64,000 nucleotides of DNA. Source: an uncultured marine group III euryarchaeote. Lineage in GTDB: Archaea > Thermoplasmatota > Poseidoniia > MGIII > CG-Epi1. Positions 9,240-60,826 of this stretch are shown one piece after another. A program made the position numbers and the translations under genes. Every line of letters begins with the position of its first letter. Within the stretch, counting starts at the first letter, position 1. The stretch lies in the NCBI GenBank assembly GCA_902533295.1, contig CACALG010000001.1:19048-83047 (forward strand). Reading direction: 5' to 3'. The notes below the pieces were generated by a model. The model worked only from the letters and a program-made list of their open reading frames with translations. It searched no databases and was not told where the DNA came from.

Positions 9240-10707
<1,468 letters not shown>

Positions 10708-10989: not shown

Positions 10990-13900
10990 TTAAACCTTAA
11001 CTTGAAATTGTTGCCCAGGCTGTAATCCAGCAGGTATTGCAACAGTTACAACACGACCATCTGGTGCCTTAATTTGAATCTGCTGTCCTGGTTGTGCTCC
11101 AGCAGGTACTGCTACATTCAGAACGGTTCCTCCAGGAGCTGGTGCAGGCGGAGCTGCAGGTTCAGGGGCAGGTGGTTGTTCTGGAACTGGTGCAGGAGGT
11201 GCTGCTGCAGGTTCAGGGACTGGTGGTTGTTCTGGAACTGGTGCAGGAGGTGCTGCTGCAGGTTCAGGGACTGGTGGTTGTTCTGGAATTGGTGCAGGAG
11301 GTGCTGCTGGTGGTTGCTCAGTTATTGGAGGTGCAGCAGGCGGTTGTTCTGGTAATTCACCACCGAAAGCATCCAGTGAATCTCCAGAAGACTTAGATCT
11401 AGAATAGAAAAAGTATCCAGCTCCAGCTCCAACTAATACTACAGCTCCTGCCCCGGCTAAAACGATTGGATTAAATGATTCTGATGATCCTCCCCCTGTA
11501 ACTTCACTTTCTTTGAGTGTTCCTGAAACAGCTATTTTTACGATTTCAGAATCATCATTTAGAGCATCCTGTGGGCCCAATGCAGGTATTACACTATCTC
11601 TGTTAATTCTAACTTTTAGAGTTAGTTCACCATCATAAGGATCTGGTAATATATGTATTATTTGAACTTCAAGTGAACCAAAACCATCTATTGTAAAGTT
11701 TCCATCATTACCAGGATAAGTATCATCGTCCAAAGTGACTACAGAACCAAATTCTAACAATTCAAGAGTTCCACTAGCTGAAGCTCCCCCTTCGTTTGCC
11801 AAAAATATTTTTAGAGTAACCTCATCTCCTTCGCCAGCATTCATAGGAATTGCCATGAGACTTGTGATTGCGAGACTTGGTGGAGTGGAAATTTCCACTC
11901 TATTATTTGTATCAGAGAAAATAAGTTCCTCTGAATCCCAAAATTGCTCTCCACTATTTTTAGCATTGATATCTCTGATTGATAACTCAAATGTCCAGAA
12001 GCCTGTAAAATCAGAATTTCCACCAGATAGGAAAGAAACTGAAGGATAATTCTCATTAAAAGTGATTATTGTCTCTTCATTAGCAGGTAATTCTATGGAA
12101 CCATAACTGTCAACAATACCTGCAAAATTAACTTGGAGGTCTTTTCCAGATTTTGTAAGGCTAATTTCAGCATTTGCAGTTACATCAAAAGAACCTTCAT
12201 TCATTACATGGATTTTTGCATAAGCAATTGAACCATCACTAAATGAGACAAGTTCATTGCCATTCTCATCCTCCCAAACAATCTGAGTAACTATCAAATT
12301 AGGCAATTTTTTAATATCAATATCAACTTCTTCATCAAACAGTACACCTTCTTCAGAATCTTCTAACATTATATACAATTTTTCTACATTAGCAGTAGGT
12401 GTGATCTCTCCTTGGAAAGTTTTTGTCTCATCTACATCAACTTTTGTTTGAGGCTCAATAGTTATGATATTGTCTTCATCATCACTATCATCCCAATACA
12501 AAGTAGTTGTAATCTCTCCATATTTTTCACCATCATTCTCAATTTCTAAACTCCATGTATTCGCTATTCCTTCAACAAGCATATCTCCAAATTCAATATT
12601 GTAAGTAATATCGGGAGATGCAGATGAAACCAATATTGATTGTGAAACACTATCTTCGGCACCCTGACTACTGTCTTCTGGTAAAGAATCTACAATTTCT
12701 GCAGTTATTGTGTGTTCTCCCTCAGGTATATCTCTCCAGGTTGTAGTCACTGTTTTAGATTCCCCTCCTGTTACTCCATCTATATTAGCTGTAGCAATCA
12801 AATCCCCTCCATTTCTGAATTCTACGGTTACTCTTGCATCACCTTCCCCGTCATTTGATATGACTGCTGAAATAATTACATCATTACCTTCCACTAATTC
12901 TCCGGAAAATGATAGATCATCTATTGATAAATCTGCATCAGTAGTCAAGATATTTAGATCAGTAAGTTTTACTCTTCCAGGAGTTTCAGAATTTAATTTT
13001 AGTATTGCTTCAGCTTCCAAATCATCACTATTCTCTATCACTGCATTAAGTGCACTGACTAGCCCATTTGTACTGACGTGAATCACGGCATCATATTCAA
13101 TACTCAATTCACTAAAACCTACAGTACCTTTAGATGAACTACCCACAGTCATTACAATTTCAGTCATTTCTACACCATATTCATCAACAATAGTGTCACC
13201 ATTGTCTATTGCATCTTGTAATGCTTCTTGTAGGGCATTTTTCAAAGATTTTATTCCACCGGATTCACCCCATGTTTGCGGAGAATTTTCACTGTTTAAT
13301 TCACCAGCCCATTCCCAATCATTATTATTTGTAATTTTAATGTATGGATCCTCTGGGTAATCATCACTAAGAGTGCTTCTTACATAGATATTTTTGTCCG
13401 TATCCTCGCCACCAGAAATATCTGTTTCTTCAGTAAATGCAAAGTATGTTTTATCTCCAACTACCATATCCATGCGGTGATATTTTGCAACTAGTTGCTC
13501 ATTGTCATAATCAGTAATCTCGAAGCTGTCAGACCATGAACCTCCATCATCCTGGGTAAAAGCGAAATAGTAATCATACGAGCCTCCGGAAGCATATTGA
13601 TATGAAATATATGTAAAACCAGAACCACTAGCAATACTTGGTAATGCAAGCGTAGTACTAGTATCGGTATCTATTGCAATTGTAACATCGTTCCATGTTT
13701 CTCCATTGTCATTGGATACTGCCCAAACAATATCATAATCACTTGAACCATCTCCATCATAATCTCCACTGTCTACCCAAGCTACATACAATTTTGATCC
13801 TTCAGCACTAATAACGGGAGTATATGAGTAATAAGCAGTTGTTCCTTCATTTAAATAGACTAAATCAGCCCAGGAACTTCCATCAGTACTATATGTGTAA

Positions 13901-16248: not shown

Positions 16249-16986
16249 ATGACTGAACAATACCACATGAATTCCCATGAAGGCACATATACTAGGGAAT
16301 TTGAGGCTAAAGTAGAGGCTACATTCCCAGGCATCATCGAACTAGATAAGACTGCATTCTATCCATTGGGAGGGGGCCAACCCTCAGATATTGGAACAAT
16401 AACTTGGAATGAAGGAGATGCAAATGTTACTGATGTGAGGAAAAAAAATCGAATTAGGCACATTGTAGAAGGAGATTTACCAGAAGTTGGAGATTCCATA
16501 AAAGGTAATCTTGACTGGTCACGAAGATATTCACATATGAGAATGCATACTTCTCAACATTTAGTTTCTGCTGTAGTGAATGAAATATATGGTTCAGATA
16601 CCGTAGGAAATCAGATAGGAAATGAGAAGTCTAGAATAGATTTTAAGCCTTTAAAAATAAACCAAACTGAGCTTAATGAAGTAGAGGACAAAGTCAATGA
16701 TTACATATCTAAAGACTTGAAAGTTACTATATCTGAGGAATTACGGTCCAATTTAGAAAATAATCCAGATATCCGTTCAAGTATGTCTAGTGGTCTTTGG
16801 AAAATGTTACCGAAAAGTGTTACAGAATTAAGAGTAATAACCATAGGTGATATCGATGTTTGTCCATGCGCAGGCACTCATGTAAAAAGCTTAAAGGAAA
16901 TAGGTAATGTTTCTTTTATTAAAAGAGATAATAAGGGTTCTGAAAAATTAAGATTAACATATAATCTAGGCGATATCGACTCTTGA
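16249..16986 (+). CDS. alaX: AlaX-type Ala-tRNA editing protein (tRNA synthetase second additional domain)
   Basis: The zinc/editing motifs HTSQHLVS (HxxxH) and CPCAGTHV (CxxxH) sit at the spacing expected for free-standing AlaX. Confidence 0.8.
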   Translation: MTEQYHMNSHEGTYTREFEAKVEATFPGIIELDKTAFYPLGGGQPSDIGTITWNEGDANVTDVRKKNRIRHIVEGDLPEVGDSIKGNLDWSRRYSHMRMHTSQHLVSAVVNEIYGSDTVGNQIGNEKSRIDFKPLKINQTELNEVEDKVNDYISKDLKVTISEELRSNLENNPDIRSSMSSGLWKMLPKSVTELRVITIGDIDVCPCAGTHVKSLKEIGNVSFIKRDNKGSEKLRLTYNLGDIDS

Positions 16987-19900
16987 ATTTGTAAGGCCCT
17001 CTCTGTCCTTTTGTTCATACATCATTTTAATTTCTACAGAAGTTGCAGCATTACTTTTTTGTTGCATTTTTAGTTTAAATTGTACTTCGTTATATGAAGA
17101 TATATCACCCACAATAAACGAGTTATCTGAGAATGAATAATATACATCTGGATCTATACCTACTAATCCTAAGATGCTACTATTGAATTCTGGACTTATT
17201 TTACAACTACTAATAGTTTCAGATGAATAATTACTGAGATTTACGTTCAAAGTTATATTTGTACCGAGTTTTTCGTATGATGATGTAATAACAATTTCTT
17301 TTTCAGTGAAGTAATTGTCAACCATTTCTCTTGTAGATGCAATTGTTTCATCAATTATTGGGTTCAGATAAATTTTTACCTGCTTTACACTCTCGGCATC
17401 TCCATTCCAATTTGCTAGGGTTGGATTAATTGTTTCTATAGCTCTAACGGCATTAATCAGCTTCCCTTTGAACATATTATCTATTTCTCCATAAATTACA
17501 GCAGCAAGATAGGAATGTTCTCCTCTCTGTAGAATGATTTTATTATTACCATAGTCTATGGAACCCAGATCTCCTTCAGTTTGAAATGAGTCTTGAACAA
17601 AATCATTGATTGCTGTGAGCATCCCGCTCATGATATCTGTATCAGTTTTAACTTCAACAGCACTAACATTTCTAAGAAGCCTTCCATCTTTGTAAATTAA
17701 ATATAATTCTTCAACTTTATACTTAGCAATAGGTTTTGATTCAATAATAGATACATTTTCATCTAATTCTTCTTTCCTAGATCGGTATAGTAAAACACCA
17801 CCAAACATTAAGAAAAGAAGACTTATACCTATAGTAGCAGGTAAAATTTCTTTCATTCCAAATTGATCAGTTTCTGTACCTGAGGAACTATATAATTTGA
17901 CTACTTCTTCCATACTTACTGTTTCATTATTAGAATTGCTAATGTGACCGAATTCATCTTCTATTGTGATTCTATAAAAATAATCTCTGTCTGGACTTGG
18001 ATTCTTATGAATCCATTCATAATAACCTTGTTTACAGGAAGTTTCCATACCAACTCCTATTATTTCTTGTGTGAACCATCCACTATCTGAAGCAGGTAAT
18101 TCATCAGCTACCATTTGTACTTTACAAATAGCGGCATCTTCAGGAATAACAAAACCTAAAACCAATTCTGTAGCATTAGTATGCGATATTGCAACATTTG
18201 TAGCTTTCTGAGGGTCCTCTGTAAATACTTCAAAAGTTAAATGAACTCCTGAATAATCAATTTTTATGTTGTTATTACCTGTAATATCCTCAGTTGGTAC
18301 AAAACCTCCATTTGAAGTTCCACCAAATTGAATAGTCTTATTGATTATATCTAAATAATATTCATCTACTAACAATTTATTTTTGTTCATTCCTCTAACT
18401 AATGCTTTTTCATATATTCCATCTAAATCATTATCTACACTAACATTAAACCAATGGATATCATTAATTGCTGGAATATATTTCAAATTGAAACTTTGAT
18501 CATATTGCCCATTGGAACTGAAATATTCAGTAGTATCTAGTGGATTCTCAAGATTGCCTGCAAGATCACGACTTTCAGCATACAGGAAATATCGTGTATT
18601 ATCTTGCAAGTCCTGTAATTTAATTTTATCATCAGAGATATCATGAGGTAATAAATACCAAGTTAATAGATCATTACCTTTCTCTATAGTCTGTATTGCA
18701 ATATATATCTTATAATCTAGATTTAGATTATCTGTATCTATGAAGATTTCTAGATAATCATATCCCCATTTTTGAGGTACATTTGAGAAAGAAATGGTAT
18801 CTACTTTCGATGCATAATTCATTATTATATCATATTCTTCTTTATCCTCACTATTTCCGGCATAATCACTAGCCAGAATTTTAAATGCATAATGACCTAA
18901 TTCATCAAATTCATAAATATAGTGCGTGTCTCCATAAATATTTATTGAATCCAGAGCTGTCCAAGTAACTGAATTAGGATCTAAATTAGCATTTGTAAAA
19001 TTAGAATAGGAAACCTCTAGAGTATTATACGCAATATCATCTGCACTATTCTTCCACGATAAATCTATTTGACTATTGCCTATGAAATAATAATCCTCTT
19101 CAAAATTCAAAAGTTCGGTGGAAGGTATGGATGTATCAATCTTAACTTGATACTCGTAATTATTCTTATTCTCTGTGTTTCCATAAATATCTCTAGCTAA
19201 TGATCTAAACCGATATTCCTTACCATCTTCGCCAGTAAACAATACAATTGATTCTGTAAACGTGCCATATTCTTCCCATTGGGCAAATTTATCATTTACT
19301 ATATACTCAATAATATATTCTTTGAAATCATTATCATCATTCAAAAGAGATATTTGTAACTCAATAGATTCTGAATTAATTAATCCAGTTCCGGGAATTA
19401 TCTCTGATTGTGGTGATGTTGTATCCAATAATGCTAAAAGTGTGTGATTATAGGATAAATTTTTGTATATTTCTACCATAATGTCATTATTATAATAAAT
19501 AATTCTTATGGGATTATAATTAATTTCATTTTGATCGGCAGCTTTGCTAATTACATTTATCATATAATAATCGGAAAAACCATAGTTATCAGTTTGTGAA
19601 TCAACCAGTTTACTTCCAAAAGAATTTTCGATATCAAAACCATGCTCTCTTGAACCAGTGCCCCGCTCATCAGCTATATTAATTTGCAAATTGTAGCGGA
19701 TCAAATAATCAGTATCACGACAATTAAAATCATTGTTTTGTAAAGTAGAATCACTGTCAATTAAGTCCAAACAAAAATCTCCTTCTGAGAATATATTATT
19801 ATCTATTGATATAGTACTATTAAATGAATAAATAGCTTTTTCAAAATCGTTAAAGACATTGTTTAAAATATTTATATCTGATCTATAAGAGCTTACTGAT

Positions 19901-22128
19901 TGTGTATTATTCGTTAATATATTATTTGAAATTCTTCCTTCACTATTATTTGCAGTTATAGCTATTTCCGAAAAATTAATAATATTGTCTTCTAAGTCAA
20001 AATCTGCAAGAACGACAGTTATAGATTCTCTAAAATTCGTTATTATATTATCACTAACTTCGACTTCACCTTCCTGCGAAAAAATACCTACTGCAGCAAC
20101 TTTTTGTAAATAAAGAACATCACATCTATCATGTGTGCATAATCCGGTTACATTATTATTAACTATTTTACTATATGTCCTGTTACTAAGAATACCATAA
20201 TCATTTACATGCAATATATTATCTTCAATAAGTATAGGAAACGTACTATCCTCAAATCCTCCTACTTCGATACCCACTGCCGAACTTAATGTATTATTTT
20301 TAATTATAGTTTTTGGAATATAATATGCATAAATTCCTGATAATTGTGATTCAGGACTCATGTTTGTTTGAACTGTATTATTTGCAATATATCCTTCTTC
20401 AACATCTCTGAACATTATGCCAGCACCATCGATAGAATGAACAAGATTATTTGTTACATGTATATTATCAATTGTAAATGCTGAACCAAACTGAGTATAT
20501 GCAGATATTCCATTATATTTTATATTTTTGAGTGTGTTATTAGCGACAATACCATTTGATATGTCGCCAAAACCATTATCATATATCCAAATTCCTATAG
20601 ACGCATTATCAATATAATTATCCACTATAGTAAAATTTTTGTAGAAATTCCAAACCGTTATTGCTCTTGCTGATGTATTAGTAATATAATTTGAAATTAT
20701 ATGATTATCAGTTCCTACATCATTATATACATTTTCAAAATCAAGCGCTATTGGAAAGTCATTATCATTGATGGTATTATTTATTATATAATTTCCAGAA
20801 GGTGATATACCTCCTTCAGGCCAACCCCAAAGTCCTATAGCTTGCCATCCTATTTCAAAATTATTATTTCTTATAGTATTATTGTTCTGAAATGAATTAA
20901 TAAAAATAGCAATTGTGTAATTTTCAAAGTAATTATTTTCGATTAAATGACCTCCACCATAATATTCATCTGTATCAAAATCCCAGAACCAGAAAATCAT
21001 ACAACTATGCCCCCAATAGGGTTGTTTAGACCCGCAATTTATGAATGTATTATTACTGTATTCATTTCTATTTCCTGCACGATCCATAAGATTGTGCCAA
21101 TATACGCCAGAAACATTGAATATGTTGCGGCTAATTATATTGTCATCTGTAGCTTGTAGAGACATATCATGTATTGTATTATTTAGAAATTGGTTATCAA
21201 TTATTGTATGATTACTGCCTTGAGTTATAGTAAGCGTACCTCTGCCTCCCTGTCCATTATCCTTGTAAATATAATCTCTAAAGATGTTACCACTAATTAG
21301 ATTATAATTCCCATAGGAAATAGTTACACCTAATGTACCGTTAATGAAAGTATTATTTTGTATTAAGGCGTTCTCTCCTGAGACAAACAAGTCATAGAAT
21401 ATGTAACTATTATAAATCGTGTTATTAATAAATCTAAAATTATCAGTATAAGCACTAATTATTCCAATCATATCAAATGTGGAATTAGTTATGTAAGATC
21501 CAGCTCCAGTAAATCTTAATGCCTTTACATACTCAAAATCAGAATTCTCAATAATTACCCTAGTATTAGGAATTCCTGAGCCTGGCTGATTATTTACTAA
21601 TCTGCCTACTTGAACAGTATAATCTAACCTCTCTGTGTAATTCCCTTTACCAATTATATTAGATTTAATAACGGAACGATCATTACTAGTTGTCGGATTC
21701 AAATCATAATCTGTAACAATTAGTACAGAATTCTCATTTAAATCAAGACAATTAGCAGTTATTTCACTATTCTTTTGAATAGAATCAAGTATTAATTCAG
21801 AATTAATTATGGTCAGTGTACTGTATAATGATATATTGTCACCATGTGAATCTTGTTCATGAAATACTGTAGAATTAATCCATCTGGTTTCTCCTCTAAT
21901 TTCAATGAAACCTTTTGATGATAGAGAAACGTTTTCAAGTTTCAAAGTCTTACCAAAATTAACGACAATATCTTTGACTGAGACGTCCTCATCCCAAACA
22001 TGCGTGTCTTGAGTGATAATCCAATCCTGACCCTCTTGGGGTGCATTTCCATTTGAACCTGCTGAAGCATTTCCAGTACTGATTACTATCGCAGTAATTG
22101 CGATTAAAAGAAATGCTGTTTTCTTCAT
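16966..22128 (-). CDS. Giant surface protein (1720 aa): signal peptide, Asn-rich right-handed beta-helix (PbH1-like) repeats, Ig/Fn3-like region, one TM helix, cytoplasmic roadblock-like domain plus a beta-rich C-terminal domain
   Basis: N-terminal AFLLIAITAIVISTGNASA. Hundreds of residues carry periodic NNT/NN.I/GI.. beta-helix signatures (e.g. IQNNTFINGTLGVTISYGNYNLISGNIF). The TM helix is ILPATIGISLLFLMFGGVLLY (about 17785-17847), followed by a 270-aa tail. Confidence 0.75.
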   Translation of the reverse strand: MKKTAFLLIAITAIVISTGNASAGSNGNAPQEGQDWIITQDTHVWDEDVSVKDIVVNFGKTLKLENVSLSSKGFIEIRGETRWINSTVFHEQDSHGDNISLYSTLTIINSELILDSIQKNSEITANCLDLNENSVLIVTDYDLNPTTSNDRSVIKSNIIGKGNYTERLDYTVQVGRLVNNQPGSGIPNTRVIIENSDFEYVKALRFTGAGSYITNSTFDMIGIISAYTDNFRFINNTIYNSYIFYDLFVSGENALIQNNTFINGTLGVTISYGNYNLISGNIFRDYIYKDNGQGGRGTLTITQGSNHTIIDNQFLNNTIHDMSLQATDDNIISRNIFNVSGVYWHNLMDRAGNRNEYSNNTFINCGSKQPYWGHSCMIFWFWDFDTDEYYGGGHLIENNYFENYTIAIFINSFQNNNTIRNNNFEIGWQAIGLWGWPEGGISPSGNYIINNTINDNDFPIALDFENVYNDVGTDNHIISNYITNTSARAITVWNFYKNFTIVDNYIDNASIGIWIYDNGFGDISNGIVANNTLKNIKYNGISAYTQFGSAFTIDNIHVTNNLVHSIDGAGIMFRDVEEGYIANNTVQTNMSPESQLSGIYAYYIPKTIIKNNTLSSAVGIEVGGFEDSTFPILIEDNILHVNDYGILSNRTYSKIVNNNVTGLCTHDRCDVLYLQKVAAVGIFSQEGEVEVSDNIITNFRESITVVLADFDLEDNIINFSEIAITANNSEGRISNNILTNNTQSVSSYRSDINILNNVFNDFEKAIYSFNSTISIDNNIFSEGDFCLDLIDSDSTLQNNDFNCRDTDYLIRYNLQINIADERGTGSREHGFDIENSFGSKLVDSQTDNYGFSDYYMINVISKAADQNEINYNPIRIIYYNNDIMVEIYKNLSYNHTLLALLDTTSPQSEIIPGTGLINSESIELQISLLNDDNDFKEYIIEYIVNDKFAQWEEYGTFTESIVLFTGEDGKEYRFRSLARDIYGNTENKNNYEYQVKIDTSIPSTELLNFEEDYYFIGNSQIDLSWKNSADDIAYNTLEVSYSNFTNANLDPNSVTWTALDSINIYGDTHYIYEFDELGHYAFKILASDYAGNSEDKEEYDIIMNYASKVDTISFSNVPQKWGYDYLEIFIDTDNLNLDYKIYIAIQTIEKGNDLLTWYLLPHDISDDKIKLQDLQDNTRYFLYAESRDLAGNLENPLDTTEYFSSNGQYDQSFNLKYIPAINDIHWFNVSVDNDLDGIYEKALVRGMNKNKLLVDEYYLDIINKTIQFGGTSNGGFVPTEDITGNNNIKIDYSGVHLTFEVFTEDPQKATNVAISHTNATELVLGFVIPEDAAICKVQMVADELPASDSGWFTQEIIGVGMETSCKQGYYEWIHKNPSPDRDYFYRITIEDEFGHISNSNNETVSMEEVVKLYSSSGTETDQFGMKEILPATIGISLLFLMFGGVLLYRSRKEELDENVSIIESKPIAKYKVEELYLIYKDGRLLRNVSAVEVKTDTDIMSGMLTAINDFVQDSFQTEGDLGSIDYGNNKIILQRGEHSYLAAVIYGEIDNMFKGKLINAVRAIETINPTLANWNGDAESVKQVKIYLNPIIDETIASTREMVDNYFTEKEIVITSSYEKLGTNITLNVNLSNYSSETISSCKISPEFNSSILGLVGIDPDVYYSFSDNSFIVGDISSYNEVQFKLKMQQKSNAATSVEIKMMYEQKDREGLTNSRVDIA

Positions 22129-51780: not shown

Positions 51781-53778
51781 TTGCATTGGACTATGTTTGG
51801 CATAGGAGCCATAGGTGCAATAGATACTTGGCAAGAATTGAATACAACCGGTGAAGGAATAATAACCAACTGGTTTGTAGGTGGCTTAATTAATATTTTT
51901 GGACCTTTCTTATTATGGATAGGTGGGGCTTTGTTGCTTTCAAGATTAGGTGCAGCCGGACCTTCTATAATGCTTAAATTCTTCAGAAAAACCCCATTGC
52001 TTTCTGATGTAAAGAGAGGTCTTGAATCGACTGGAACAAGTGAATCTACAGGTAGACTATCAACAATTATGCTATTGACATTATCAATAGTAACTCTCGC
52101 AGCCGTACAAGGATATACAGGTTCTCTTGTCGATGAAAGAACAGCGGATTTAGATATTGGTAGCGACATCAAAGTTTATGCTGTTGAACCAATGACTTCA
52201 ATTGAAGTAGAACAAGCAATCACTAATATCAGCTCTAAAGACCTTACTGTAAATGCAGTAAATGTACCGATTATTCCCTTGATATCTGAGGATGGGACGG
52301 ACGTTAATGCATATGTACTAATGAATGAAAGTACCGAGATACTCAAATGGTTTCCTCAAGCCGTTCCTGGAAAAGATATTTCTGAAGCAATGATTGCATA
52401 CAAAGATGGAGGATTCACAGCAGGCGAAGATATAGCATTTACATTGGATTTATGGGGTTCTGGCCGTTACGGTGATTCAGAAGACATATTACTAGATAAA
52501 AGCAATAAGAACTCAGAAAATTTGAATTTAACATGGGAAGAAACTATTGTTACCTTTACAGGTGAGGAAAATGAAGAACTAGATCCAATGATGGCGATAG
52601 TGTTGTATACTGGGTTCATGGAAAAGAATTGGTCAAATATTGACCTATCTAACCAGGATATAAGCAGCCGGAATTTTACACAAACTGACTTTTCGAATAC
52701 AAATTTATCTGGTGCCAATTTAGCTAATTCAGATTTATCAGAATCGATATTCTTCAACGTTGATCTAAGGGGTGCTAATCTAACTGGTGCAAATCTAAAC
52801 AATACTGTATTTGTGATACAACCACAAAACATTGTCGGTGCAAACTTTACAGGTGCAAATCTGAGAGGGGCCTTTGAATATACTGGATTTGTTAATTTGT
52901 CAAACGAGGAAATAAGTGGTGCTATTTGCCCTGATGGAACTATACAAACTAATGATAATAATTGTTCCACTGGATTTAGTACAATACCTCCCCCCTTACT
53001 GGCACCTTTCTTTATTCCTGCAACAGTTGAATTTGAAGTGATTCCACATGAAACAACTATACGATACATTGGAGTTCATGAATTCATTCCTGGTGTTGCT
53101 ACAAATGACATGAATAATTATTTAGTAATAAATGAGCTAGCATATAGAGAATTACGAGGAAATCAATTCGTTGATAGTGAAACTTCAACTACTTGGATTG
53201 TAGATATAGATGGGCTCAATAATGATGAATTACAAGTATTGGCCCTGCTAATAGCTGCAGATTCTCGTTTTGAAAGTGCCGATGATTGGGAAACATCACA
53301 TGAAAATGTTGAGAGAAATGGAGGAATTATATTCGGAACACAGGGTCTTTTCACACTACAATATCTTGTTGCAAGTGTTGCTGCAATAGCCTCATCATTT
53401 GTTTTCTTATCATTAGTTTTAAATCAAAAGAAGAAAGAATTGGCTATTTTACAAGCAATAGGAGCTAGTCCAAATCAGATTATCAGACTCGTTTTATTCG
53501 AGATTCTATCTATAGTATTTGTTTCTATGATTTTAGGAGTTATACTCGGTATTGGTTTGGCTTTATCCTTTAACGGACTGTTTGATATCTTTGGATTCTT
53601 ATTCCAGTTGTTTTCTGGAACTGGAGAATCATCAGTAATTACAAGAGTACTACAGTGGCCTTGGTGGGTTATAATCAAGGTCACATTAGGTGTACTATCT
53701 GTGGTTGTCTTGGCTTTAATTATGACCACCAGAAGGGCATTACGTGCCGATTTAGCCGTTGTTTTAAAGGGAGAATAA
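51781..53778 (+). CDS. C-terminal half of the double-FtsX permease: three TM helices, a second extracytoplasmic domain containing pentapeptide repeats, and a second FtsX bundle
   Basis: KKELAILQAIGASPNQIIRLVLFE FtsX motif with C-terminal TM helices, and pentapeptide repeats at 52627-52875. This frame is open from 51721 and overlaps the end of the preceding ORF, so it may be one gene with 50202-51734 (possible +1 shift at 51727-51730). Confidence 0.7.
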   Translation: MHWTMFGIGAIGAIDTWQELNTTGEGIITNWFVGGLINIFGPFLLWIGGALLLSRLGAAGPSIMLKFFRKTPLLSDVKRGLESTGTSESTGRLSTIMLLTLSIVTLAAVQGYTGSLVDERTADLDIGSDIKVYAVEPMTSIEVEQAITNISSKDLTVNAVNVPIIPLISEDGTDVNAYVLMNESTEILKWFPQAVPGKDISEAMIAYKDGGFTAGEDIAFTLDLWGSGRYGDSEDILLDKSNKNSENLNLTWEETIVTFTGEENEELDPMMAIVLYTGFMEKNWSNIDLSNQDISSRNFTQTDFSNTNLSGANLANSDLSESIFFNVDLRGANLTGANLNNTVFVIQPQNIVGANFTGANLRGAFEYTGFVNLSNEEISGAICPDGTIQTNDNNCSTGFSTIPPPLLAPFFIPATVEFEVIPHETTIRYIGVHEFIPGVATNDMNNYLVINELAYRELRGNQFVDSETSTTWIVDIDGLNNDELQVLALLIAADSRFESADDWETSHENVERNGGIIFGTQGLFTLQYLVASVAAIASSFVFLSLVLNQKKKELAILQAIGASPNQIIRLVLFEILSIVFVSMILGVILGIGLALSFNGLFDIFGFLFQLFSGTGESSVITRVLQWPWWVIIKVTLGVLSVVVLALIMTTRRALRADLAVVLKGE

Positions 53779-53780
53779 AT

Positions 53781-54872
53781 ATGAGTGAAGAACTATTTGA
53801 ACATACAACGGGACAAGGAAAAGAAAATGAAGAATCAAAGCAGCAAATGGAAGCTGCTCAATTCTCAGAGAATTTATATGACAACAAAATAGACAAAAAT
53901 GCTATCTTACAAGCTATAGCATTATATCATGTTTATCAATCTACTGCTGAAGATGGAAATGTTGTTGCTTTGAGAGGATTAAATGTAACTGTTAAGAAAG
54001 GAGAAGCTGTAGCCATTGTTGGTCCTTCTGGTTCTGGTAAATCAACCTTATTGAAATGTCTTGGAGTTTTAATGAAGCCCTCAGCAGGAGGGGTTATCCT
54101 AAACGGAACGCCAACTACACGTAAGACTGGACTTGAACTAGTAAAAATGAGACAAGAAACAGTTTCATTTATTTTCCAAGAAGGGAATCTATTGCCTGAT
54201 CTAAATGCCCTCGATAACGTAGCTCAACCACTACGCCACAGAGATGTAAGCCCATATGAAGCAAAAGAAAAAGCACGTGAATTATTAATTGAATTAGGCT
54301 TAGAAGAAAGAATATATGGATTTCCTGAAACACTTTCAGGTGGTGAACAGCAAAGGGTCGCAATTGCACGGGCGTTAGTAACAAATCCAAAACTGATTCT
54401 AGCCGATGAACCTACGGGGGCACTAGATCCTATAACCAGTAGAGAAGTACTAGAATTATTTGGAAAATTACACAAGGAAAGAGGTGTAGCATTCTTAATT
54501 GTAACACATAGTGCAGAAGTAGCAGCTTTTTGTGATCGTAGCTTAGAATTACGTGATGGCAGATTTGTCGCCGAACATGGAACAAACTTAGAAATAGAAG
54601 ATTTAGAAGAATCTCGTGAACTAATAATTGATGATTTAGGAACATTATCATTTCCTCCTGAAGTATTGATGAGAATGGGTGGTTCTGGACGATTTGAAGT
54701 TGAGGAAGCTGCTGATGGAAAAATTACCTTGGTTGCTGCTGAGAGAAAAGAATCTATGATTAAAGGAAAGCAAAAACTGGCTGAGAAATGTCCTGCTTGT
54801 GAGTACAAATACAAGGACAATAGCCAAATGTGTCCTGAATGTGGTTCAAGCCGACCAATGATTAAATCATAA
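53781..54872 (+). CDS. ABC transporter ATPase with a C-terminal extension ending in a zinc ribbon
   Basis: GPSGSGKST, LSGGEQQRVAIARAL, LILADEPTGALD and VTHS, followed by a ~95-aa tail with CPAC-x12-CPEC (54789-54845). ATG 53781 lies 2 nt after the permease stop; the ORF track starts at 53655. Confidence 0.85.
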   Translation: MSEELFEHTTGQGKENEESKQQMEAAQFSENLYDNKIDKNAILQAIALYHVYQSTAEDGNVVALRGLNVTVKKGEAVAIVGPSGSGKSTLLKCLGVLMKPSAGGVILNGTPTTRKTGLELVKMRQETVSFIFQEGNLLPDLNALDNVAQPLRHRDVSPYEAKEKARELLIELGLEERIYGFPETLSGGEQQRVAIARALVTNPKLILADEPTGALDPITSREVLELFGKLHKERGVAFLIVTHSAEVAAFCDRSLELRDGRFVAEHGTNLEIEDLEESRELIIDDLGTLSFPPEVLMRMGGSGRFEVEEAADGKITLVAAERKESMIKGKQKLAEKCPACEYKYKDNSQMCPECGSSRPMIKS

Positions 54873-56708: not shown

Positions 56709-57587
56709 ATGAGCTGTGTAGATGACTTATCCAAAATTGGCATGAACGATTTGAACTATACTTGTGCAACAGAAATAGCAAGTATGGGGCCTGTTGCAGC
56801 TTTACTTACTATACTCATTGGAATCCCTCTTGTAAGGCTGGTTTTGAGGTACCTAAAGAATATATTTGAGAAGTATGATTACATCGATGAAGGAATAGAA
56901 AATTTCCTTTTTAGAGCTACCAGCGTAGCTCTTTGGGCTGTTATTTTCTTGACAGCCGCAAATGAACTAGGAATAAATGTTACAGGAATTGTAGCAGCTC
57001 TTGGTATTGTTGGTTTAGCAATGGCTTTTGCAGCTCAAGATACTATAGAGAATATTATTGCAGGTATATTCCTAATGGTAGATAGACCATTCCGTGAAGG
57101 TGATCGAATATTATTACCGAAGAAAATTGGTAGTTTGTATTCAAGCTGGGGTGATGTAACTGAAGTTGGCCTTAGAACAACAAGAGTGCGCTCCACTGAT
57201 GGAGTTTTGCTTACAATACCAAACAAAAATTTGACAAAAGACACCATTGCTAATTTCAACCATAAAGATGACCGAAATCTCCGTGTAAGGATTAGATTAG
57301 GACTAGTGCCAACATGGGAAAATGTATCCAAAGGTGAAGAAATTGTAGAAAATATTGCTAAAAGTCATGAGGACATTTGCCAAGATAAACCAAAACCACC
57401 ACAGATAGTTTTGAGAGATTTTGGAGATCAAGAAGTAATCATGGAAATTAGATACTATGTCCCTAATGCACCTCTAATGAGAAGTACAAAATCATATTTT
57501 GTTAAAGAAATTCTAAAACAATTTGAAGAACAAGATGTTAGATTGGCATACCCAACTAGACTAATTATGAAGGAAGATATTGAATAA
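56709..57587 (+). CDS. Small-conductance mechanosensitive channel (MscS family)
   Basis: The pore helix and beta-domain pattern AAQDTIENIIAGIFLMVDRPFREGDRI ... GDVTEVGLRTTRVRSTDGVLLTIPN. Confidence 0.85.
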   Translation: MSCVDDLSKIGMNDLNYTCATEIASMGPVAALLTILIGIPLVRLVLRYLKNIFEKYDYIDEGIENFLFRATSVALWAVIFLTAANELGINVTGIVAALGIVGLAMAFAAQDTIENIIAGIFLMVDRPFREGDRILLPKKIGSLYSSWGDVTEVGLRTTRVRSTDGVLLTIPNKNLTKDTIANFNHKDDRNLRVRIRLGLVPTWENVSKGEEIVENIAKSHEDICQDKPKPPQIVLRDFGDQEVIMEIRYYVPNAPLMRSTKSYFVKEILKQFEEQDVRLAYPTRLIMKEDIE

Positions 57588-58631
57588 TTAAGGATTCAAA
57601 CCCTTTTCAAGTTCTTCTATTTCCTTACGCAGAGAATCTAAATCCTTATTGTCTTGCGTAGTTGTGGTAGGTGCTTCCGTTGTAGCTAACTGATGCTTAT
57701 ATGGATTGAACCAATTGACAAAATGATTTGCTGCCACTTTCAAAACAGTACTAACTTTGGCCATACCGCCATTGGTTTTAGATATATTGATATCACATGA
57801 CAGCACACCACAGTCAGCATTTGCATTATTAATTTCTGAATATGGGATAGTAACACCTGCACCACCACCGGCAAAAATTAGCCTATCCTGTAAAGCAGCC
57901 ATTGCATTTACAGGAATACCATCAATCTGTGTGTTAAGTTGTGCCTGGACAAGTGCATATACTGTATCCCCGGATTGCATCATACCTATAAGTGGAAAAA
58001 TCTGGGAATCATTATTAGTTACATAAAAACCATCTGGCAACTGTTTGAGCATTTCTCTAAAAAAGGCAAAATCGGCATTGTAAGGTACTCCTGAGATACC
58101 CTGAACCTGATTAGAAACTGGAGGTGTAACTGGAGGTGTAACTGGAGGTGCAGCTGGAGGTGTAGCTGGAGGTGTGCTAATATTAGCATCTTGATTTGTA
58201 GCTAACTGATGCTTATATGGATTGAACCAATTGACAAAATGATTTGCTGCCACTTTCAAAACAGTACTAACTTTGGCCATACCGCCATTAGTTTTAGATA
58301 TATTGATATCACAGGACATTACGCCACAGTCAGCATGTGCATTATTAATTTCTGAATAAGGGATAGTAACACCTGCACCACCACCGGCAAAAATTAGCCT
58401 GTCTTGTAAAGCAGCCATTGTATTTACAGGAATACCATCAATCTGTGTGTTAAGTTGTGCTGGCACTAGTGCATACACTGTGTCTCCAGGCTGCATCATA
58501 CTCATAAGTGGAAAAATCTGAGAATCATTAGTCGTTACATGAAAACCATCTGGCAACTGATTTAGCATTTGTCTAAAAAGAGCCAAATCAGCATTGTAAG
58601 GCACTCCTATTATATTACTCATAAATATCAA
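57588..58631 (-). CDS. Hypothetical protein with two tandem ~137-aa PH-like modules, a PPxxPP linker and a C-terminal coiled-coil tag
   Basis: The two halves differ at 13 of ~137 positions in a manual alignment. The linker is PPATPPAAPPVTPPVTPPV. The protein ends with LRKEIEELEKGLNP. The PH-like call rests on the pattern LQDRLIFAGGG..VTIPYSEINN and is inference. Confidence 0.5.
   Translation of the reverse strand: MIFMSNIIGVPYNADLALFRQMLNQLPDGFHVTTNDSQIFPLMSMMQPGDTVYALVPAQLNTQIDGIPVNTMAALQDRLIFAGGGAGVTIPYSEINNAHADCGVMSCDINISKTNGGMAKVSTVLKVAANHFVNWFNPYKHQLATNQDANISTPPATPPAAPPVTPPVTPPVSNQVQGISGVPYNADFAFFREMLKQLPDGFYVTNNDSQIFPLIGMMQSGDTVYALVQAQLNTQIDGIPVNAMAALQDRLIFAGGGAGVTIPYSEINNANADCGVLSCDINISKTNGGMAKVSTVLKVAANHFVNWFNPYKHQLATTEAPTTTTQDNKDLDSLRKEIEELEKGLNP
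57682..58616 (-). repeat. Intragenic direct repeat, two ~420-bp copies with a 516-bp period
   Basis: The copies lie at about 57682-58100 and 58198-58616. The first ~95 nt of each copy (gtagctaactgatgcttatatgg...ccataccgccatt) are identical. Confidence 0.85.
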
Positions 58632-58657
58632 AAGGTTAGCATATTATTTATTATTTA

Positions 58658-59113
58658 TTATTCATCTAGACTGGCTTCAAGTTCTTCGATTTCTTTCTGC
58701 AAACGCAACTTTTCGGCTGCTTTCACTTCTTCATCTTTTTTCATTAAGTATTCCTTTCTCTTTTGCAAAAGTTCTTCTCGTTCAGCTTGTTCTACTTTTG
58801 CCCTTTCCCGTTCTTGAGCTTCAGCGATAATTCTTGTTTCCTGAAACTGCCTTGCCATTTCCGCATGTGCCTCTAAATTCTCCTTATCCTGTATATTTTT
58901 AGCCCAAGCTACAAAAACCAACATTATTATGAAACTGATACAACAAATAACACTATCTTCCCCAAATTCTTCATCTTGCTTTTCACACTCTGGTGTCCAA
59001 TCAACGTCACAAGAATCATCAGGAGACTCTGAACCAAAAAAGAAAACACATGCGATGAGAAAAAATGTTATAGCAAGAAAATTCAACAGATTCTTCAAAA
59101 TTCCAGAAGCCAA
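58658..59113 (-). CDS. Hypothetical membrane-anchored coiled-coil protein
   Basis: Two hydrophobic segments are followed by a charged helical tail that ends with LQKEIEELEASLDE, the same terminal motif as the neighbouring gene. Confidence 0.45.
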   Translation of the reverse strand: MASGILKNLLNFLAITFFLIACVFFFGSESPDDSCDVDWTPECEKQDEEFGEDSVICCISFIIMLVFVAWAKNIQDKENLEAHAEMARQFQETRIIAEAQERERAKVEQAEREELLQKRKEYLMKKDEEVKAAEKLRLQKEIEELEASLDE

Positions 59114-59161
59114 ATAATCACCCTATAACAACAAGAAAAACACTATTTAAAAAAATTTACC

Positions 59162-60100
59162 TTATTTAGAAAGCTTTTCCATCCTTTCTTCATATATCTT
59201 ATCATTAATCAATCCTTCAGCATGCAATTCTTTAAGTTGATCAATCTTAACTTGCAAAGAACCACTTGAAGCTTCTTTCTCAATATTTGATTTACTTACA
59301 ACACTATCTTTGATAATTGTGTCTCTGTCATCTACATAAGTTGTTGTTGTATCTCTATCATCTATATAATTTCCTTGAACAATTGTTGTAGGTGGTCCTG
59401 CACTCACTTGCATCTTACTCTTATTAACACGACGTATATCCTCTACCCTATCTAATTCTCTATACAAATCAAGTGCATGTTCATAATCTAATTGTCTCTC
59501 ATACTTCCTAGCTAATTCTAACTTCTTCGCTACCTTTCTATCTGCCTCCTCTCGCCTCTTTTTATCCTTTAATTCATTCTTAAGCTCAGCCTTCTTAGCT
59601 CTGAGTTTTTCCAATTCGGGATCAACAGATTTACTTGATGGTTCAACTTTTTCTCTAGGGTTGTTAAACTTTTGACTCGTATTTGGGATTTCATTTTTAA
59701 ATTCCTGATTAGTAGTGTCGTGAACATTTACAGGACACAGACCAAACAGAACTTGGGCATCTGTTTGCGATACAAAAGTAGAGGCTGCCATAAACTGATA
59801 TTTTTCTTGAGCATATCCATTGTCATAACTGAAATTAAAGAATTGCTTACCATTTCCAGTAATCCATTTTGTTCGCATTTTGATTAATTCAAAGGCCATT
59901 TGATTAGTGGCATCTCCACAGACCAAAAGTCTCGTATTAGTCAAAAAAATATTTGCCTTACTGTATATTGTATTTTTACCCAAATATGAATCTGTTGTAG
60001 TAATATTGTAAAATTTTTGAATTGTTACATTGGCTCCATTTCCTCCAGAAGACCAAACAATATGCTCATTAGCCTCAAGCAAAGGATTCGTATTAGGCAT
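59162..60100 (-). CDS. Hypothetical protein: N-terminal PH/GRAM-like module, central coiled coil, C-terminal SHOCT-like motif
   Basis: LLEANEHIVWSS ... IFLTNTRLLVCG fits the bacterial PH-like pattern. The basic/acidic coiled coil is ELEKLRAKKAELKNELKDKKRREEADRK. The C-terminus KIDQLKELHAEGLINDKIYEERMEKL resembles SHOCT. Confidence 0.5.
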   Translation of the reverse strand: MPNTNPLLEANEHIVWSSGGNGANVTIQKFYNITTTDSYLGKNTIYSKANIFLTNTRLLVCGDATNQMAFELIKMRTKWITGNGKQFFNFSYDNGYAQEKYQFMAASTFVSQTDAQVLFGLCPVNVHDTTNQEFKNEIPNTSQKFNNPREKVEPSSKSVDPELEKLRAKKAELKNELKDKKRREEADRKVAKKLELARKYERQLDYEHALDLYRELDRVEDIRRVNKSKMQVSAGPPTTIVQGNYIDDRDTTTTYVDDRDTIIKDSVVSKSNIEKEASSGSLQVKIDQLKELHAEGLINDKIYEERMEKLSK

Positions 60101-60202: not shown

Positions 60203-60807
60203 ATGTCATTTGAAGTACCTGATTTACCGTACGACTACAGCGCTCTTGAACCATACATAGATGAAGAAACTATGCGAATACATCATGACAAACATCATGC
60301 TGCATATGTTAACATGTTGAATGGTGCAGTTGAAGCTGCAGGAATAAAGGGAAAATCTGTAAAAGAATTAATCACAGACTTGGATTCTGTACCTGAAGCT
60401 CAAAGAGGAGCTGTTAGAAACCATGGTGGTGGGCACTTTAATCACTCACTATTTTGGGAAGTCATGGGTCCAGTTAATGGTGAAATGAGTTCCGATCTGA
60501 ACACAGCACTTTTGGAAGCATTTGGATCATTAGATGATTTTAAAGCTAAATTTCAGAACGCAGGAATGACACGCTTTGGCTCTGGATGGGCCTGGTTATG
60601 TTCAAATAATGGAAAATTGGAAATATGTTCTACTGCAAATCAAGATAATCCAATTATGGGTAACAAATACGGTGGAACTGATGGAGAGATACCAATCCTA
60701 GGAATTGATGTTTGGGAACATGCATATTATCTGAATTATCAAAATTTGAGGGCAGATTACATTTCAGCTTTCTTCAATGTTATTAATTGGGCTGAAGTCT
60801 CAAGGCG

Positions 60808-60826
<19 letters not shown>
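60203..60826 (+). CDS. sod: Fe/Mn superoxide dismutase
   Basis: [25 protein letters not shown] and DVWEHAYYL motifs. The start is taken at ATG 60203 ([10 protein letters not shown]). Confidence 0.92.

What the first reader, a model, noticed from the sequence alone, without database searches (positions are those of the whole stretch)
57588..60100. Three-gene minus-strand cluster of PH-like, coiled-coil and SHOCT proteins that share a C-terminal KEIEELE tag
Seen in sequence: there are three consecutive genes with short spacers. Gene 1 (59162-60100) has an N-terminal module (HIVWSS...IFLTNTRLLVCG), a charged coiled coil and a SHOCT-like end (LKELHAEGLINDKIYEERMEKL). Gene 2 (58658-59113) has two hydrophobic helices plus a coiled coil. 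Gene 3 (57588-58631) has two tandem modules with a similar ...LQDRLIFAGGG..VTIPYSEI pattern. Genes 2 and 3 both end in (L)(R/Q)KEIEELE(K/A)(G/S)L, encoded by a shared ttcaagttcttc.atttc DNA string. Established knowledge: bacterial PH-like domains and SHOCT motifs frequently co-occur in small membrane-associated proteins of unknown function. Inference: the shared C-terminal helix could mediate hetero-oligomerisation, giving a membrane-anchored complex (gene 2) that displays PH-like modules. The cluster lies next to an MscS channel gene, which may hint at an envelope-stress role, but that is speculation.
Basis: partly seen in the sequence, partly recalled or inferred. Interest (0 to 1): 0.6.

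Follow-up and report, generated by a model that had tools for sequence, protein, structure and literature searches.

The report
Archaeal PH-like membrane cassette, shared tail
A small cassette of two to three genes, present in only some strains of an uncultured marine archaeon (Marine Group III), encodes a membrane protein and two PH-domain-like proteins; two of them end in the same, strictly conserved 12-residue helix, so they probably assemble under the membrane, but their function is unknown and they are not tied to the neighbouring MscS channel gene.

Summary
Three minus-strand genes lie at 57588-60100.

- **G2:** two transmembrane helices, an acidic 4-Cys outer loop and an acidic coiled-coil stalk.
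- **G3:** two 92%-identical bPH_3-like modules. This fold call is weaker.

G2 and G3 end in LxKEIEELExxL. The block is invariant in every G2 homolog read (36-49% identical overall) and in G3 homologs. It occurs in no other ORF of about 1,300 checked.

G1-G2 is a conserved core pair. G3 is an accessory, present in most lineages.

The host is Marine Group III. In 22 of 24 related species MscS abuts SOD directly with no cassette, and one lineage carries the pair elsewhere. The MscS/envelope-stress idea is therefore not supported.

G1 belongs to a large, seemingly undescribed family (about 490 clusters) with variable heads and one constant tail.

I infer a sub-membrane complex built through the shared tail and through G1/G2 helices of matching length and opposite charge. 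No interaction was tested and the function remains unknown.

The parts
59162..60100 (-). G1: 312-aa cytoplasmic protein made of a PH-like head, a basic long helix, a DDRDT/DSVVSKSNI motif region and a SHOCT-type two-helix end
   Evidence: ORF; 11 full-length homolog clusters at 41-99% identity; AF2 model; dN/dS 0.29
59735..60073 (-). G1 PH-like head (residues about 10-122), GRAM/GLUE-like: eight beta strands capped by a C-terminal helix
59405..59620 (-). G1 long helix (residues 161-232), net basic, containing the family-wide motif ARKYERQLDYEHALDLYRELDRVEDIRRVNK
   Evidence: AF2 helix 161-232; invariant columns; net charge +4 to +8 in five lineages; 11-aa insertion specific to the window lineage
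59264..59404 (-). G1 motif region TTIVQGNYIDDRDTTTTYVDDRDTIIKDSVVSKSNI (residues 233-279), predicted disordered in the monomer model
   Evidence: pLDDT below 50; conserved in G1 homologs and in 188 of 200 retrieved proteins
59168..59263 (-). G1 C-terminal two-helix SHOCT-type end (residues 280-311)
   Evidence: AF2 helices 280-294 and 300-311, pLDDT 83-89. PF09851 hits in 8 of 11 family members but not in the window copy. A tail-module HMM hits G1 at E 7e-33.
58658..59113 (-). G2: 151-aa two-TM membrane protein. TM1 is about residues 9-27; the acidic 4-Cys loop is 28-55; TM2 is about 56-71; the acidic coiled-coil stalk is 72-151.
   Evidence: ORF; homologs; alignment with invariant C35, C43, C57 and C58. 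A sister lineage carries a true LDL-receptor class A domain in the loop (32.3 bits against a cut-off of 24.1). Stalk net charge is -3 to -6. Topology (N-in, C-in) is inferred from the positive-inside rule.
58667..58702 (-). G2 C-terminal tail helix LQKEIEELEASL (residues 138-149)
   Evidence: The most conserved block of G2, with KEIEELE invariant across seven sequences; DNA repeat D5
57588..58622 (-). G3: 344-aa cytoplasmic protein made of two bPH_3-like modules, a Pro/Thr linker, a Thr-rich linker and the same tail helix
   Evidence: ORF; homologs; dN/dS 0.14
58197..58607 (-). G3 module 1 (residues 6-142)
   Evidence: Repeat D1; 92% nt identity to module 2; family members hit bPH_3 weakly
58092..58196 (-). 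G3 inter-module linker with five 12-nt (T/A)PP(A/V) repeats (58104-58175)
   Evidence: Repeat family D2; a close variant (L003) has three units instead of five
57681..58091 (-). G3 module 2 (residues 178-314), bPH_3-like
57597..57632 (-). G3 C-terminal tail helix LRKEIEELEKGL (residues 331-342)
   Evidence: Identical 12-mer ends the G2 homologs of L033, L034 and L038 and G3 homologs P0060, P0211, P0212, P0208 and P0209
56709..57587 (+). Flank: mscS (convergent, abuts the G3 stop codon); not part of the system
   Evidence: Pfam MS_channel domains. In 22 of 24 species representatives it directly adjoins SOD.
60203..60826 (+). Flank: Fe/Mn superoxide dismutase (divergent from G1); not part of the system
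   Evidence: tblastn synteny; Sod_Fe Pfam annotation on the L004 gene

Best explanation
The cassette encodes the parts of a small complex at the cytoplasmic face of the membrane in Marine Group III archaea.

**Parts**
- G2 is the anchor. It has two TM helices, a small acidic, Cys-rich loop facing outward (a real Ca-binding-type LDLa domain in one sister lineage), and a roughly 80-residue acidic coiled-coil stalk in the cytoplasm.
- G1 is its obligate partner. It is a GRAM/GLUE-type PH-like head on a basic helix whose length tracks the G2 stalk. This is followed by a generic tail (helical motif, DDRDT/DSVVSKSNIG, SHOCT two-helix end) shared with hundreds of other head-variable proteins of marine archaea.
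- G3 is an optional accessory. It has one or two bPH_3-like modules on flexible Pro/Thr linkers and ends in the same LRKEIEELExxL helix as G2.

**Mechanism I consider most likely.** The identical tails pack together in a homotypic helical bundle at the end of the G2 stalk, so G3's PH-like modules are tethered to G2. G1 lies along the stalk by charge-complementary helix pairing. The PH-like heads would be the ligand- or partner-binding surfaces.

**Shown:** the domain anatomy, the fold of the G1 head, co-conservation of G1 and G2, the invariance and exclusivity of the tail, and the patchy strain distribution.

**Inferred:** topology, all physical contacts, and any cellular role.
For: - G1 fold.
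- G3 PH-likeness.
- G2 anatomy, the four invariant Cys and the invariant tail. LDLa in a G2 ortholog.
- A G2 homolog follows G1 in every locus with room downstream: L033-L038, L001/L002, L004-L007, L040.
- G3 with the same tail occurs in three divergent lineages, the window type, the L033/L034/P0060 type and L038.
- The tail motif is found only in G2 and G3 among 1,318 ORFs and 200 proteins.
- The G1 helix and the G2 stalk before KEIEELE are 68/68 aa in the window lineage and 57/57 aa in three others. This is a matched 11-residue change in both partners.
- The G1 helix is net +4 to +8 and the G2 stalk net -3 to -6 in all five lineages.
- Literature: in some bacterial PH-like proteins a short C-terminal helix mediates ring oligomers (Xu et al. 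2010, as cited in PMC3581485). SHOCT-like domains are predicted to place domains at the inner membrane leaflet (PMC11237479).
Against: - No interaction was modelled or measured.
- Two heptads are short for a stable bundle. In a parallel homodimer register, the g-e' pair would be Glu-Glu, which is repulsive (my reading of the sequence).
- The L036 lineage breaks the length match (57 against 50 aa), and the +11/+11 match is a single evolutionary event.
- SHOCT did not oligomerise in the only published test (PMC3581485).
- The G3 fold rests on sub-threshold hits and a pLDDT-46 model.
- The function is not addressed by any evidence.
Confidence: 0.42

Rival explanations
1. The identical tails are docking peptides for one common receptor rather than partners of each other. 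The most likely receptor is the PH-like head of G1. G2 and G3 would then be alternative or simultaneous clients of G1, and G1's constant tail would plug the complex into a platform shared by the whole head-variable family.
For: - The tails are identical rather than complementary.
- G3's tail sits behind a flexible Thr/Pro linker, like a tethered peptide.
- The closest structural neighbours of the G1 head are peptide- or protein-binding PH folds: Vps36 GLUE, pICln, SNX17 F3, RanBD, EVH1, TFIIH p62.
- The G1 head has four invariant Lys (K29, K42, K78, K100) and a nearly invariant Arg, facing a tail with four invariant Glu.
- G1 always accompanies G2.
Against: - No docking model exists.
- The net charge of the head is only +1.
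- This reading does not explain the matched helix lengths.
Confidence: 0.25
2. The cassette is a conflict module, such as anti-virus, abortive-infection or competition. G2 would be a small membrane-perturbing effector held in check or triggered by the PH-like proteins.
For: - Distribution is patchy at strain level at a fixed site between housekeeping genes. Carriers occur in three MGIII lineages whose nearest species representatives lack the cassette.
- L014 has a different membrane protein gene at the same spot.
- Evolution is fast: dN is 13 times that of SOD in the same genome pair.
- The G1 family is missing from 185,579 species-representative genomes by pattern scan.
- G2 is small, with two TM helices and a highly charged C-terminal region.
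Against: - PADLOC gave no significant hit. The only match is a 19-residue stretch at E 9e-4.
- PHROGs gave nothing meaningful.
- No relatives were found in IMG/VR viral contigs.
- No nuclease, ATPase, toxin or integrase lies nearby.
- The four invariant Cys and the LDLa variant of G2 point to a structured outer loop, which suggests a receptor rather than a pore.
Confidence: 0.15
3. The shared tail is only generic coiled-coil sequence with no specific joint role. The three genes would then be neighbours of unrelated function.
For: E/K/L-rich heptads are common. Each gene may have its own promoter, because a T-run and TATA-like boxes lie in the spacers (my reading).
Against: - A 12-of-12 identical tail occurs across two unrelated proteins and across lineages whose remaining sequence is 36-65% identical.
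- The motif is absent from all other ORFs examined.
- Gene order is conserved.
Confidence: 0.06
4. The cassette is an envelope-stress module functionally coupled to the adjacent MscS channel.
For: Physical adjacency in the window, in L003 and in L035.
Against: - MscS abuts SOD with no cassette in 22 of 24 species.
- The genes converge, so they are not co-transcribed.
- The pair sits in another context in L036/L001.
- An unrelated gene occupies the same site in L014.
Confidence: 0.03

Closest known systems
SHOCT domain proteins (Pfam PF09851; Eberhardt et al. 2013, PMC3581485) and SHOCT-like domains (Ravi et al. 2024, PMC11237479)
   Same: G1 ends in a short C-terminal two-helix unit. Eight of 11 G1-family members and most paralogs hit PF09851. 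As described for SHOCT, it is appended to many different N-terminal domains, including PH-like ones.
   Different: The window copy is itself below HMM detection. Here SHOCT is only the last part of a longer constant module (helical 'E.HLDY..AI..YE....A.RVRKL' motif, then 'VHGDYVDDRDTIIKDSVVSKSNIG', then SHOCT). I found no description of this module. SHOCT's own function is unknown, and oligomerisation was tested and not supported.
Bacterial PH domains (bPH_3 PF14470; bPH family of Xu et al. 2010)
   Same: G3 modules carry the pattern GDTVYALV...ALQDRLIF...IPYSEI. They give weak bPH_3 matches. A short helix C-terminal to a bacterial PH domain is reported to drive ring oligomers.
   Different: Scores are below Pfam's cut-off. 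There is an extra two-helix N-terminal extension of about 45 residues. The modules are tandemly duplicated and kept near-identical. The family is very rare: three 50%-identity clusters among the 150 best hits listed from a search of 1.84 billion representatives.
GRAM/GLUE-type PH domains (myotubularin PH-GRAM, Vps36/EAP45 GLUE)
   Different: Sequence identity is only 10-19% and there is no GRAM HMM hit for G1. The resemblance is of fold only and says nothing about lipid or ubiquitin binding.
LDL-receptor class A module (PF00057)
   Same: The G2 ortholog in L036/L001 has a bona fide LDLa domain in the loop between its TM helices. The window G2 keeps four invariant Cys and acidic residues at the same place.
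   Different: The window's loop is only about 28 residues and gives no LDLa hit. It is at best a reduced or replaced version.
Short amphipathic C-terminal targeting or assembly helices (for example microcompartment encapsulation peptides, MIM-MIT pairs); recalled from general knowledge and not tested
   Same: A short conserved amphipathic helix sits behind a flexible linker and is shared by different proteins of one locus. A few paralogs of G1 give weak MIT hits over their helical motif.
   Different: No shell, encapsulin, ESCRT-III or Vps4 genes were seen in the cassette. The MIT hits are below cut-off (25 bits against 30) and cover 24 residues. This is an analogy, not membership.

Membership tests
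PH-like superfold (G1 head) | Seven-stranded antiparallel beta sandwich capped by a C-terminal helix | tested here: met
GRAM domain (PF02893) (G1 head) | Sequence match to the family HMM at or above the gathering score | tested here: not met
   No GRAM hit for G1 or any of 11 family members at E up to 0.1. Only the paralog P0023 gives a weak hit (18.3 bits against 23.6).
SHOCT (PF09851) (G1 C-terminus) | HMM match at or above the gathering score (27 bits) | tested here: inconclusive
   The window G1 has no hit at E up to 0.1. Eight of 11 family members hit, best E 4.6e-6. Paralogs score 17-48 bits, some above 27.
SHOCT (PF09851) (G1 C-terminus) | Two-helix unit of about 28 residues at the extreme C-terminus | tested here: met
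   AF2 helices 280-294 and 300-311 of 312 residues, pLDDT 83-89
bPH_3 (PF14470) (G3 modules) | HMM match at or above the gathering score (23 bits) | tested here: inconclusive
   21.5 bits, E 3.3e-4 for module 2 in the full protein. Five of 7 module homologs hit, best E 8.3e-5. P0060 scores 14.9 bits.
bPH_3 (PF14470) (G3 modules) | PH-like fold | tested here: inconclusive
LDL-receptor class A (PF00057) (G2 loop) | HMM match at or above the gathering score, with the Cys/acidic Ca-binding pattern | tested here: not met
   The window G2 has no hit. The ortholog in L036 scores 32.3 bits against 24.1. Four Cys are invariant across the family.
Known anti-phage defence systems (PADLOC-DB) | Significant match of any component to a defence-system model | tested here: not met
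   No hits for G1 or G2. G3 has only a 19-residue match, E 9e-4.
MscS-linked operon or envelope-stress module | Conserved linkage to mscS across related genomes | tested here: not met
   Twenty-two of 24 MGIII species have MscS next to SOD with no cassette. The pair is elsewhere in L036. The genes converge.

The most novel reading that the evidence does not exclude
Poseidoniia archaea (Marine Groups II/III) may use a previously undescribed address-label system. Hundreds of protein families with unrelated heads (PH/GRAM-like, HEAT, Zn-ribbon, TM) carry one constant tail (helical motif, DDRDT/DSVVSKSNIG, SHOCT). A second, separate label (LRKEIEELExxL) links a membrane receptor-like protein (G2) to PH-like clients (G3). 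Together these labels would assemble variable, strain-specific sub-membrane complexes encoded in arrays and in small replaceable cassettes.
Probability: 0.25. Interest if true: 0.7.

Novelty: new variant of a known kind. Interest (0 to 1): 0.45.

Why it matters
SHOCT and bacterial-type PH domains are widespread, but no function has been demonstrated for them. This cassette offers a compact, testable case with three features.

- Two different proteins share an invariant 12-residue tail.
- An obligate PH-like/membrane-protein pair has helices of matching length and opposite charge.
- The family is large, about 490 clusters at 50% identity, and combines variable heads with a constant tail in abundant but uncultured marine archaea.

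If the tails prove to be assembly or targeting labels, that would give a first handle on what SHOCT-type tails do. It would also show how these archaea build strain-variable membrane-associated complexes. If not, the cassette remains a lineage-restricted accessory of unknown function.

Tried and rejected
- **GTDB species genomes, G1 profile:** no relative found. The second scan was therefore spent on MscS, which gave the synteny set.
- **IMG/VR viral contigs, G1 profile:** nothing, so there is no sign of a viral origin.
- **PADLOC and PHROGs:** nothing usable. The TumA antitoxin (NCBIfam) and PDC-M44A (PADLOC) matches cover only 19 residues of the G3 inter-module junction. I treat them as spurious.
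- **afdb50 fold library:** unavailable.
- **AF2 of a G3 module with seven sequences:** poor, pLDDT 46. The fold search on it is only suggestive.
- **Other links for the G3 module:** profile-profile comparison against the G1 family gave no link. A profile search against PDB sequences gave nothing.
- **The one exhaustive representative search:** meant for the G3 module, but the profile kept P0002's tail columns. It mainly recovered the constant tail module. That was useful for family size and of little use for bridging G3 to bPH_3.
- **Mobile-element origin:** I looked for flanking direct repeats, a tRNA or an integrase around the cassette and found none.
- **MIT-like reading of the G1 helical motif:** only two paralogs give sub-threshold 24-residue MIT hits. 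Not pursued as membership.
- **GvpG hits in six G1 homologs (best E 0.007):** judged to be similarity between short helical stretches.
Full report
**1. What is there**

The window is archaeal. It holds an archaeal SSU rRNA gene at 9240-10707 with no adjacent LSU gene, and GC is about 35%.

Three consecutive minus-strand ORFs occupy 57588-60100:
- G1, 59162-60100, 312 aa.
- G2, 58658-59113, 151 aa. It has a TTG start three bases downstream of GGGTGAT.
- G3, 57588-58622, 344 aa counted from the ATG. The ORF list extends it to a TTG at 58631.

Spacers are 48 and 35 nt. The cluster lies between a convergent mscS gene (56709-57587; Pfam MS_channel domains) and a divergent Fe/Mn superoxide dismutase gene.

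**2. The observation checks out**

G3 contains two tandem modules. They share 300 nt at 93% identity with 516-nt spacing, and 90% aa / 92% nt identity over 135 codons. Five 12-nt repeats encoding (T/A)PP(A/V) join them.

The DNA string shared by the 3' ends of G2 and G3 is real: 26 nt at 85% identity. It encodes LQKEIEELEASL in G2 and LRKEIEELEKGL in G3.

**3. Folds**

G1 was modelled with an 11-sequence alignment. The model has four parts:
- an N-terminal beta domain at residues 14-121, pLDDT about 80;
- one long helix at 161-232;
- a low-confidence stretch at 230-279;
- two short terminal helices at 280-311, pLDDT 83-89.

The SHOCT call is indirect. PF09851 is found in 8 of 11 G1-family members (best E 4.6e-6) but not in the window copy.

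For G3 the evidence is weaker but consistent:
- bPH_3 (PF14470) scores 21.5 bits against a cut-off of 23.
- bPH_3 hits occur in 5 of 7 module homologs.
- The G3 module shows no profile similarity to the G1 head or to PDB sequences.

G2 gives no domain hit. Its alignment with homologs shows two hydrophobic helices, an acidic loop with four invariant Cys, and a coiled-coil stalk. In one sister lineage (L036/L001) the loop is a bona fide LDL-receptor class A domain, 32.3 bits against a cut-off of 24.1.

From the Lys-rich N-terminus, the very acidic loop and the Lys-rich start of the stalk, I infer an N-in/C-in topology with the loop outside.

**4. The tail is a real, specific, constrained feature**

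KEIEELE is invariant in every G2 homolog read, although the rest of the protein is only 36-49% identical to the window copy outside its own lineage.

| Source | G2 tail |
|---|---|
| L033, L034 | RLRKEIEELEKGLDD |
| L038 | RLRKEIEELEKGLDE |
| L035 | RLRKEIEELERDLED |
| L036 | KLRKEIEELEEALDK |
| window | RLQKEIEELEASLDE |

- The window G3 12-mer LRKEIEELEKGL is identical to the G2 tails of L033, L034 and L038.
- The same 12-mer ends G3 homologs that are about 63% identical in the module (P0060, P0211, P0212).
- A pattern scan of 1,318 ORFs from the window and 38 loci found the motif only in G2 and G3 homologs. The same held for 200 retrieved proteins.

**5. Co-conservation**

- G1 has 11 full-length homolog clusters, G2 four and G3 six.
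- In every contig with room downstream, G1 is followed by a G2 homolog: L001/L002, L004-L007, L033-L038 and L040.
- G3 follows G2 in the window type (L003-L007, L040), in L033/L034 (P0060 type) and in L038.
- G3 is absent in L035, where mscS follows G2 directly, and in L036.
- G1-G2 is therefore the core pair, and G3 is an accessory that carries G2's tail.
- dN/dS values are 0.29 for G1 and 0.14 for G3, and 0.23-0.6 for G2 on few differences. These show protein-level constraint. The non-synonymous rate is about 13 times that of the flanking SOD gene in the same genome pair.

**6. Not linked to MscS; a patchy cassette**

A scan of species-representative genomes with the MscS protein returned 24 loci. 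Where the record titles name a lineage, it is Marine Group III, Poseidoniia or Poseidoniales.

- In 22 of the 24, the order is DUF309 - cysteine desulfurase - MscS - SOD - DMT transporter - GDH. MscS and SOD are a few tens of bases apart and there is no cassette.
- One locus is cut before SOD.
- L014 carries a different 324-aa membrane-protein gene at exactly this spot.
- Cassette carriers fall in at least three MGIII lineages: the window, L034 and L035. Their nearest species representatives by SOD DNA identity (91-94%) lack the cassette.
- In L036/L001 the pair lies in another neighbourhood.
- A pattern scan for the G1 family found nothing in 185,579 species genomes and nothing in viral contigs.
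- No tRNA, integrase or flanking repeat marks the insertion.

The cassette therefore behaves as a strain-variable accessory at a fixed site. Its adjacency to mscS carries no functional weight.

**7. A larger family**

The C-terminal third of G1 matches dozens of SHOCT proteins. The exhaustive representative search found 491 clusters at 50% identity with E up to 1e-3, and 397 with E up to 1e-10. My profile unintentionally kept the tail columns of P0002, so nearly all matches come through this tail.

The constant module has three parts:
- a helical motif, consensus E.HLDY..AI..YE....A.RVRKL;
- VHGDYVDDRDT(TYVDDRDT)IIKDSVVSKSNIG;
- SHOCT.

Heads are highly diverse:
- GRAM/PH-like (P0023, P0036, P0018, P0119);
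- HEAT-like (P0117, P0133);
- Zn-ribbon;
- transmembrane, about a quarter of heads by a crude count.

Proteins with a G3-type module on this tail also exist (P0002, P0004-P0006, P0059). Such genes form arrays, with at least six in 8 kb in L039 and five in a row next to P0004.

I found no description of this module in the papers searched. The SHOCT literature leaves the function open. Oligomerisation was tested and not supported (PMC3581485), and anchoring to the inner leaflet has been predicted (PMC11237479).

**8. Hints of contact between G1 and G2**

I measured the G1 helix from D(P/S)E(L/I) to DIRR(V/I)NK, and the G2 stalk from the end of TM2 to KEIEELE.

| Lineage | G1 helix (aa) | G2 stalk before KEIEELE (aa) |
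|---|---|---|
| window | 68 | 68 |
| L033 | 57 | 57 |
| L034 | 57 | 57 |
| L035 | 57 | 57 |
| L036 | 57 | 50 |

The window lineage thus gained 11 residues in both partners. The G1 helix is net basic (+4 to +8) and the G2 stalk net acidic (-3 to -6) in all five lineages. These are suggestive, not decisive. The length match is one evolutionary event with one exception, and my boundaries are arbitrary.

**9. Mechanism**

- **Best reading (confidence about 0.4).** G2 anchors a sub-membrane complex. G1 lies along its stalk. G3's PH-like modules are tethered through homotypic packing of the shared tail.
- **Close rival (about 0.25).** Both tails are docking peptides for one receptor, most plausibly the G1 head. 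Its structural neighbours are peptide-binding PH folds, and it has four invariant Lys facing four invariant Glu in the tail.
- **Conflict/defence role (about 0.15).** This fits the patchy distribution and fast evolution, but has no support from PADLOC, PHROGs or gene content.
- **Pure coincidence of the tails, or an MscS-coupled role.** Both are disfavoured.

**10. Verdict**

Its structural interpretation is largely supported, its oligomerisation idea is plausible but untested, and its MscS hint is not supported. The domains are of known kinds. New here are the invariant shared tail, the obligate G1-G2 pairing and the large constant-tail family behind G1. I rate this as a new variant of a known kind, of moderate interest.

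Noticed in passing
L014:1776-2750 (minus strand), between MscS and SOD: A different 324-aa membrane-protein gene occupies exactly the MscS/SOD spacer where the window has the cassette. Its C-terminus (LNVWKEAGSITEQEYEEARENIEKV) looks SHOCT-like by eye, but Pfam gives no SHOCT hit at E up to 0.05. This suggests the spacer is a hotspot for accessory genes.
   Followed up: partly
window 57681-58607; L003:812-1822; P0208/P0209: The two G3 modules are kept near-identical. In a close variant (L003) module 2 is a mosaic: its first 20 residues match the window's module 2 and the rest matches module 1 (98% nt). The TPPx linker has three units instead of five. Single-module 172-aa versions also exist. 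This reflects gene conversion and copy-number change, or collapse of repeats in short-read assemblies.
   Followed up: partly
window 59405-59620 (G1 helix) and 58661-58900 (G2 stalk): There is a matched 11-residue lengthening of the G1 helix and the G2 stalk in the window lineage (68/68 aa against 57/57 aa in three other lineages). L036 is the exception (57/50).
   Followed up: yes
L039:1-8270 (NCBI GCA_000382725.2) and the contig of P0004: Tandem arrays of five to six or more genes share the constant tail (helical motif, DDRDT/DSVVSKSNIG, SHOCT) with unrelated heads. They lie beside a DUF805 membrane protein whose own C-terminus carries DSLKREMDELK and DTIQDSVVS motifs. In L001/L036 the DUF805 protein ends in KKELEEEIRRMEDELDT, loosely like the G2 tail.
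   Followed up: partly
window 10990-16197 and 16966-22128 (minus strand): Two giant ORFs (1,735 and 1,720 aa) lie next to the 16S rRNA gene. The second lies in the lowest-GC part of the window (29-30% at 18-22 kb). They were not analysed.
   Followed up: no
window 9240-10707 (minus strand): The archaeal 16S rRNA gene stands alone, with no 23S or 5S match anywhere in the 64-kb window. The rRNA genes are therefore unlinked.
   Followed up: no
window 53655-54872 (plus strand): An ABC-type ATPase ORF ends in a Cys-pair motif (CPACEYKYKDNSQMCPECG) that looks like a C-terminal zinc ribbon. Seen by eye only.
   Followed up: no
window 57573-57587 against L008:8859-8891: The last residues of MscS differ between the cassette-bearing window (...RLIMKEDIE*, also in L035) and the cassette-free L008 and L014 (...RLIMKD(T/P)EQTWKI*). 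I did not check whether this tracks with cassette presence across all loci.
   Followed up: no
window vs L004 (SOD, G1, G2): Synonymous divergence of G1 (dS 0.18) and G2 (0.035, only 3 synonymous changes) is lower than that of the flanking SOD gene (0.41) in the same pair of sequences. This hints at recent exchange of the cassette between strains. Counts are small and the contigs are metagenomic.
   Followed up: partly
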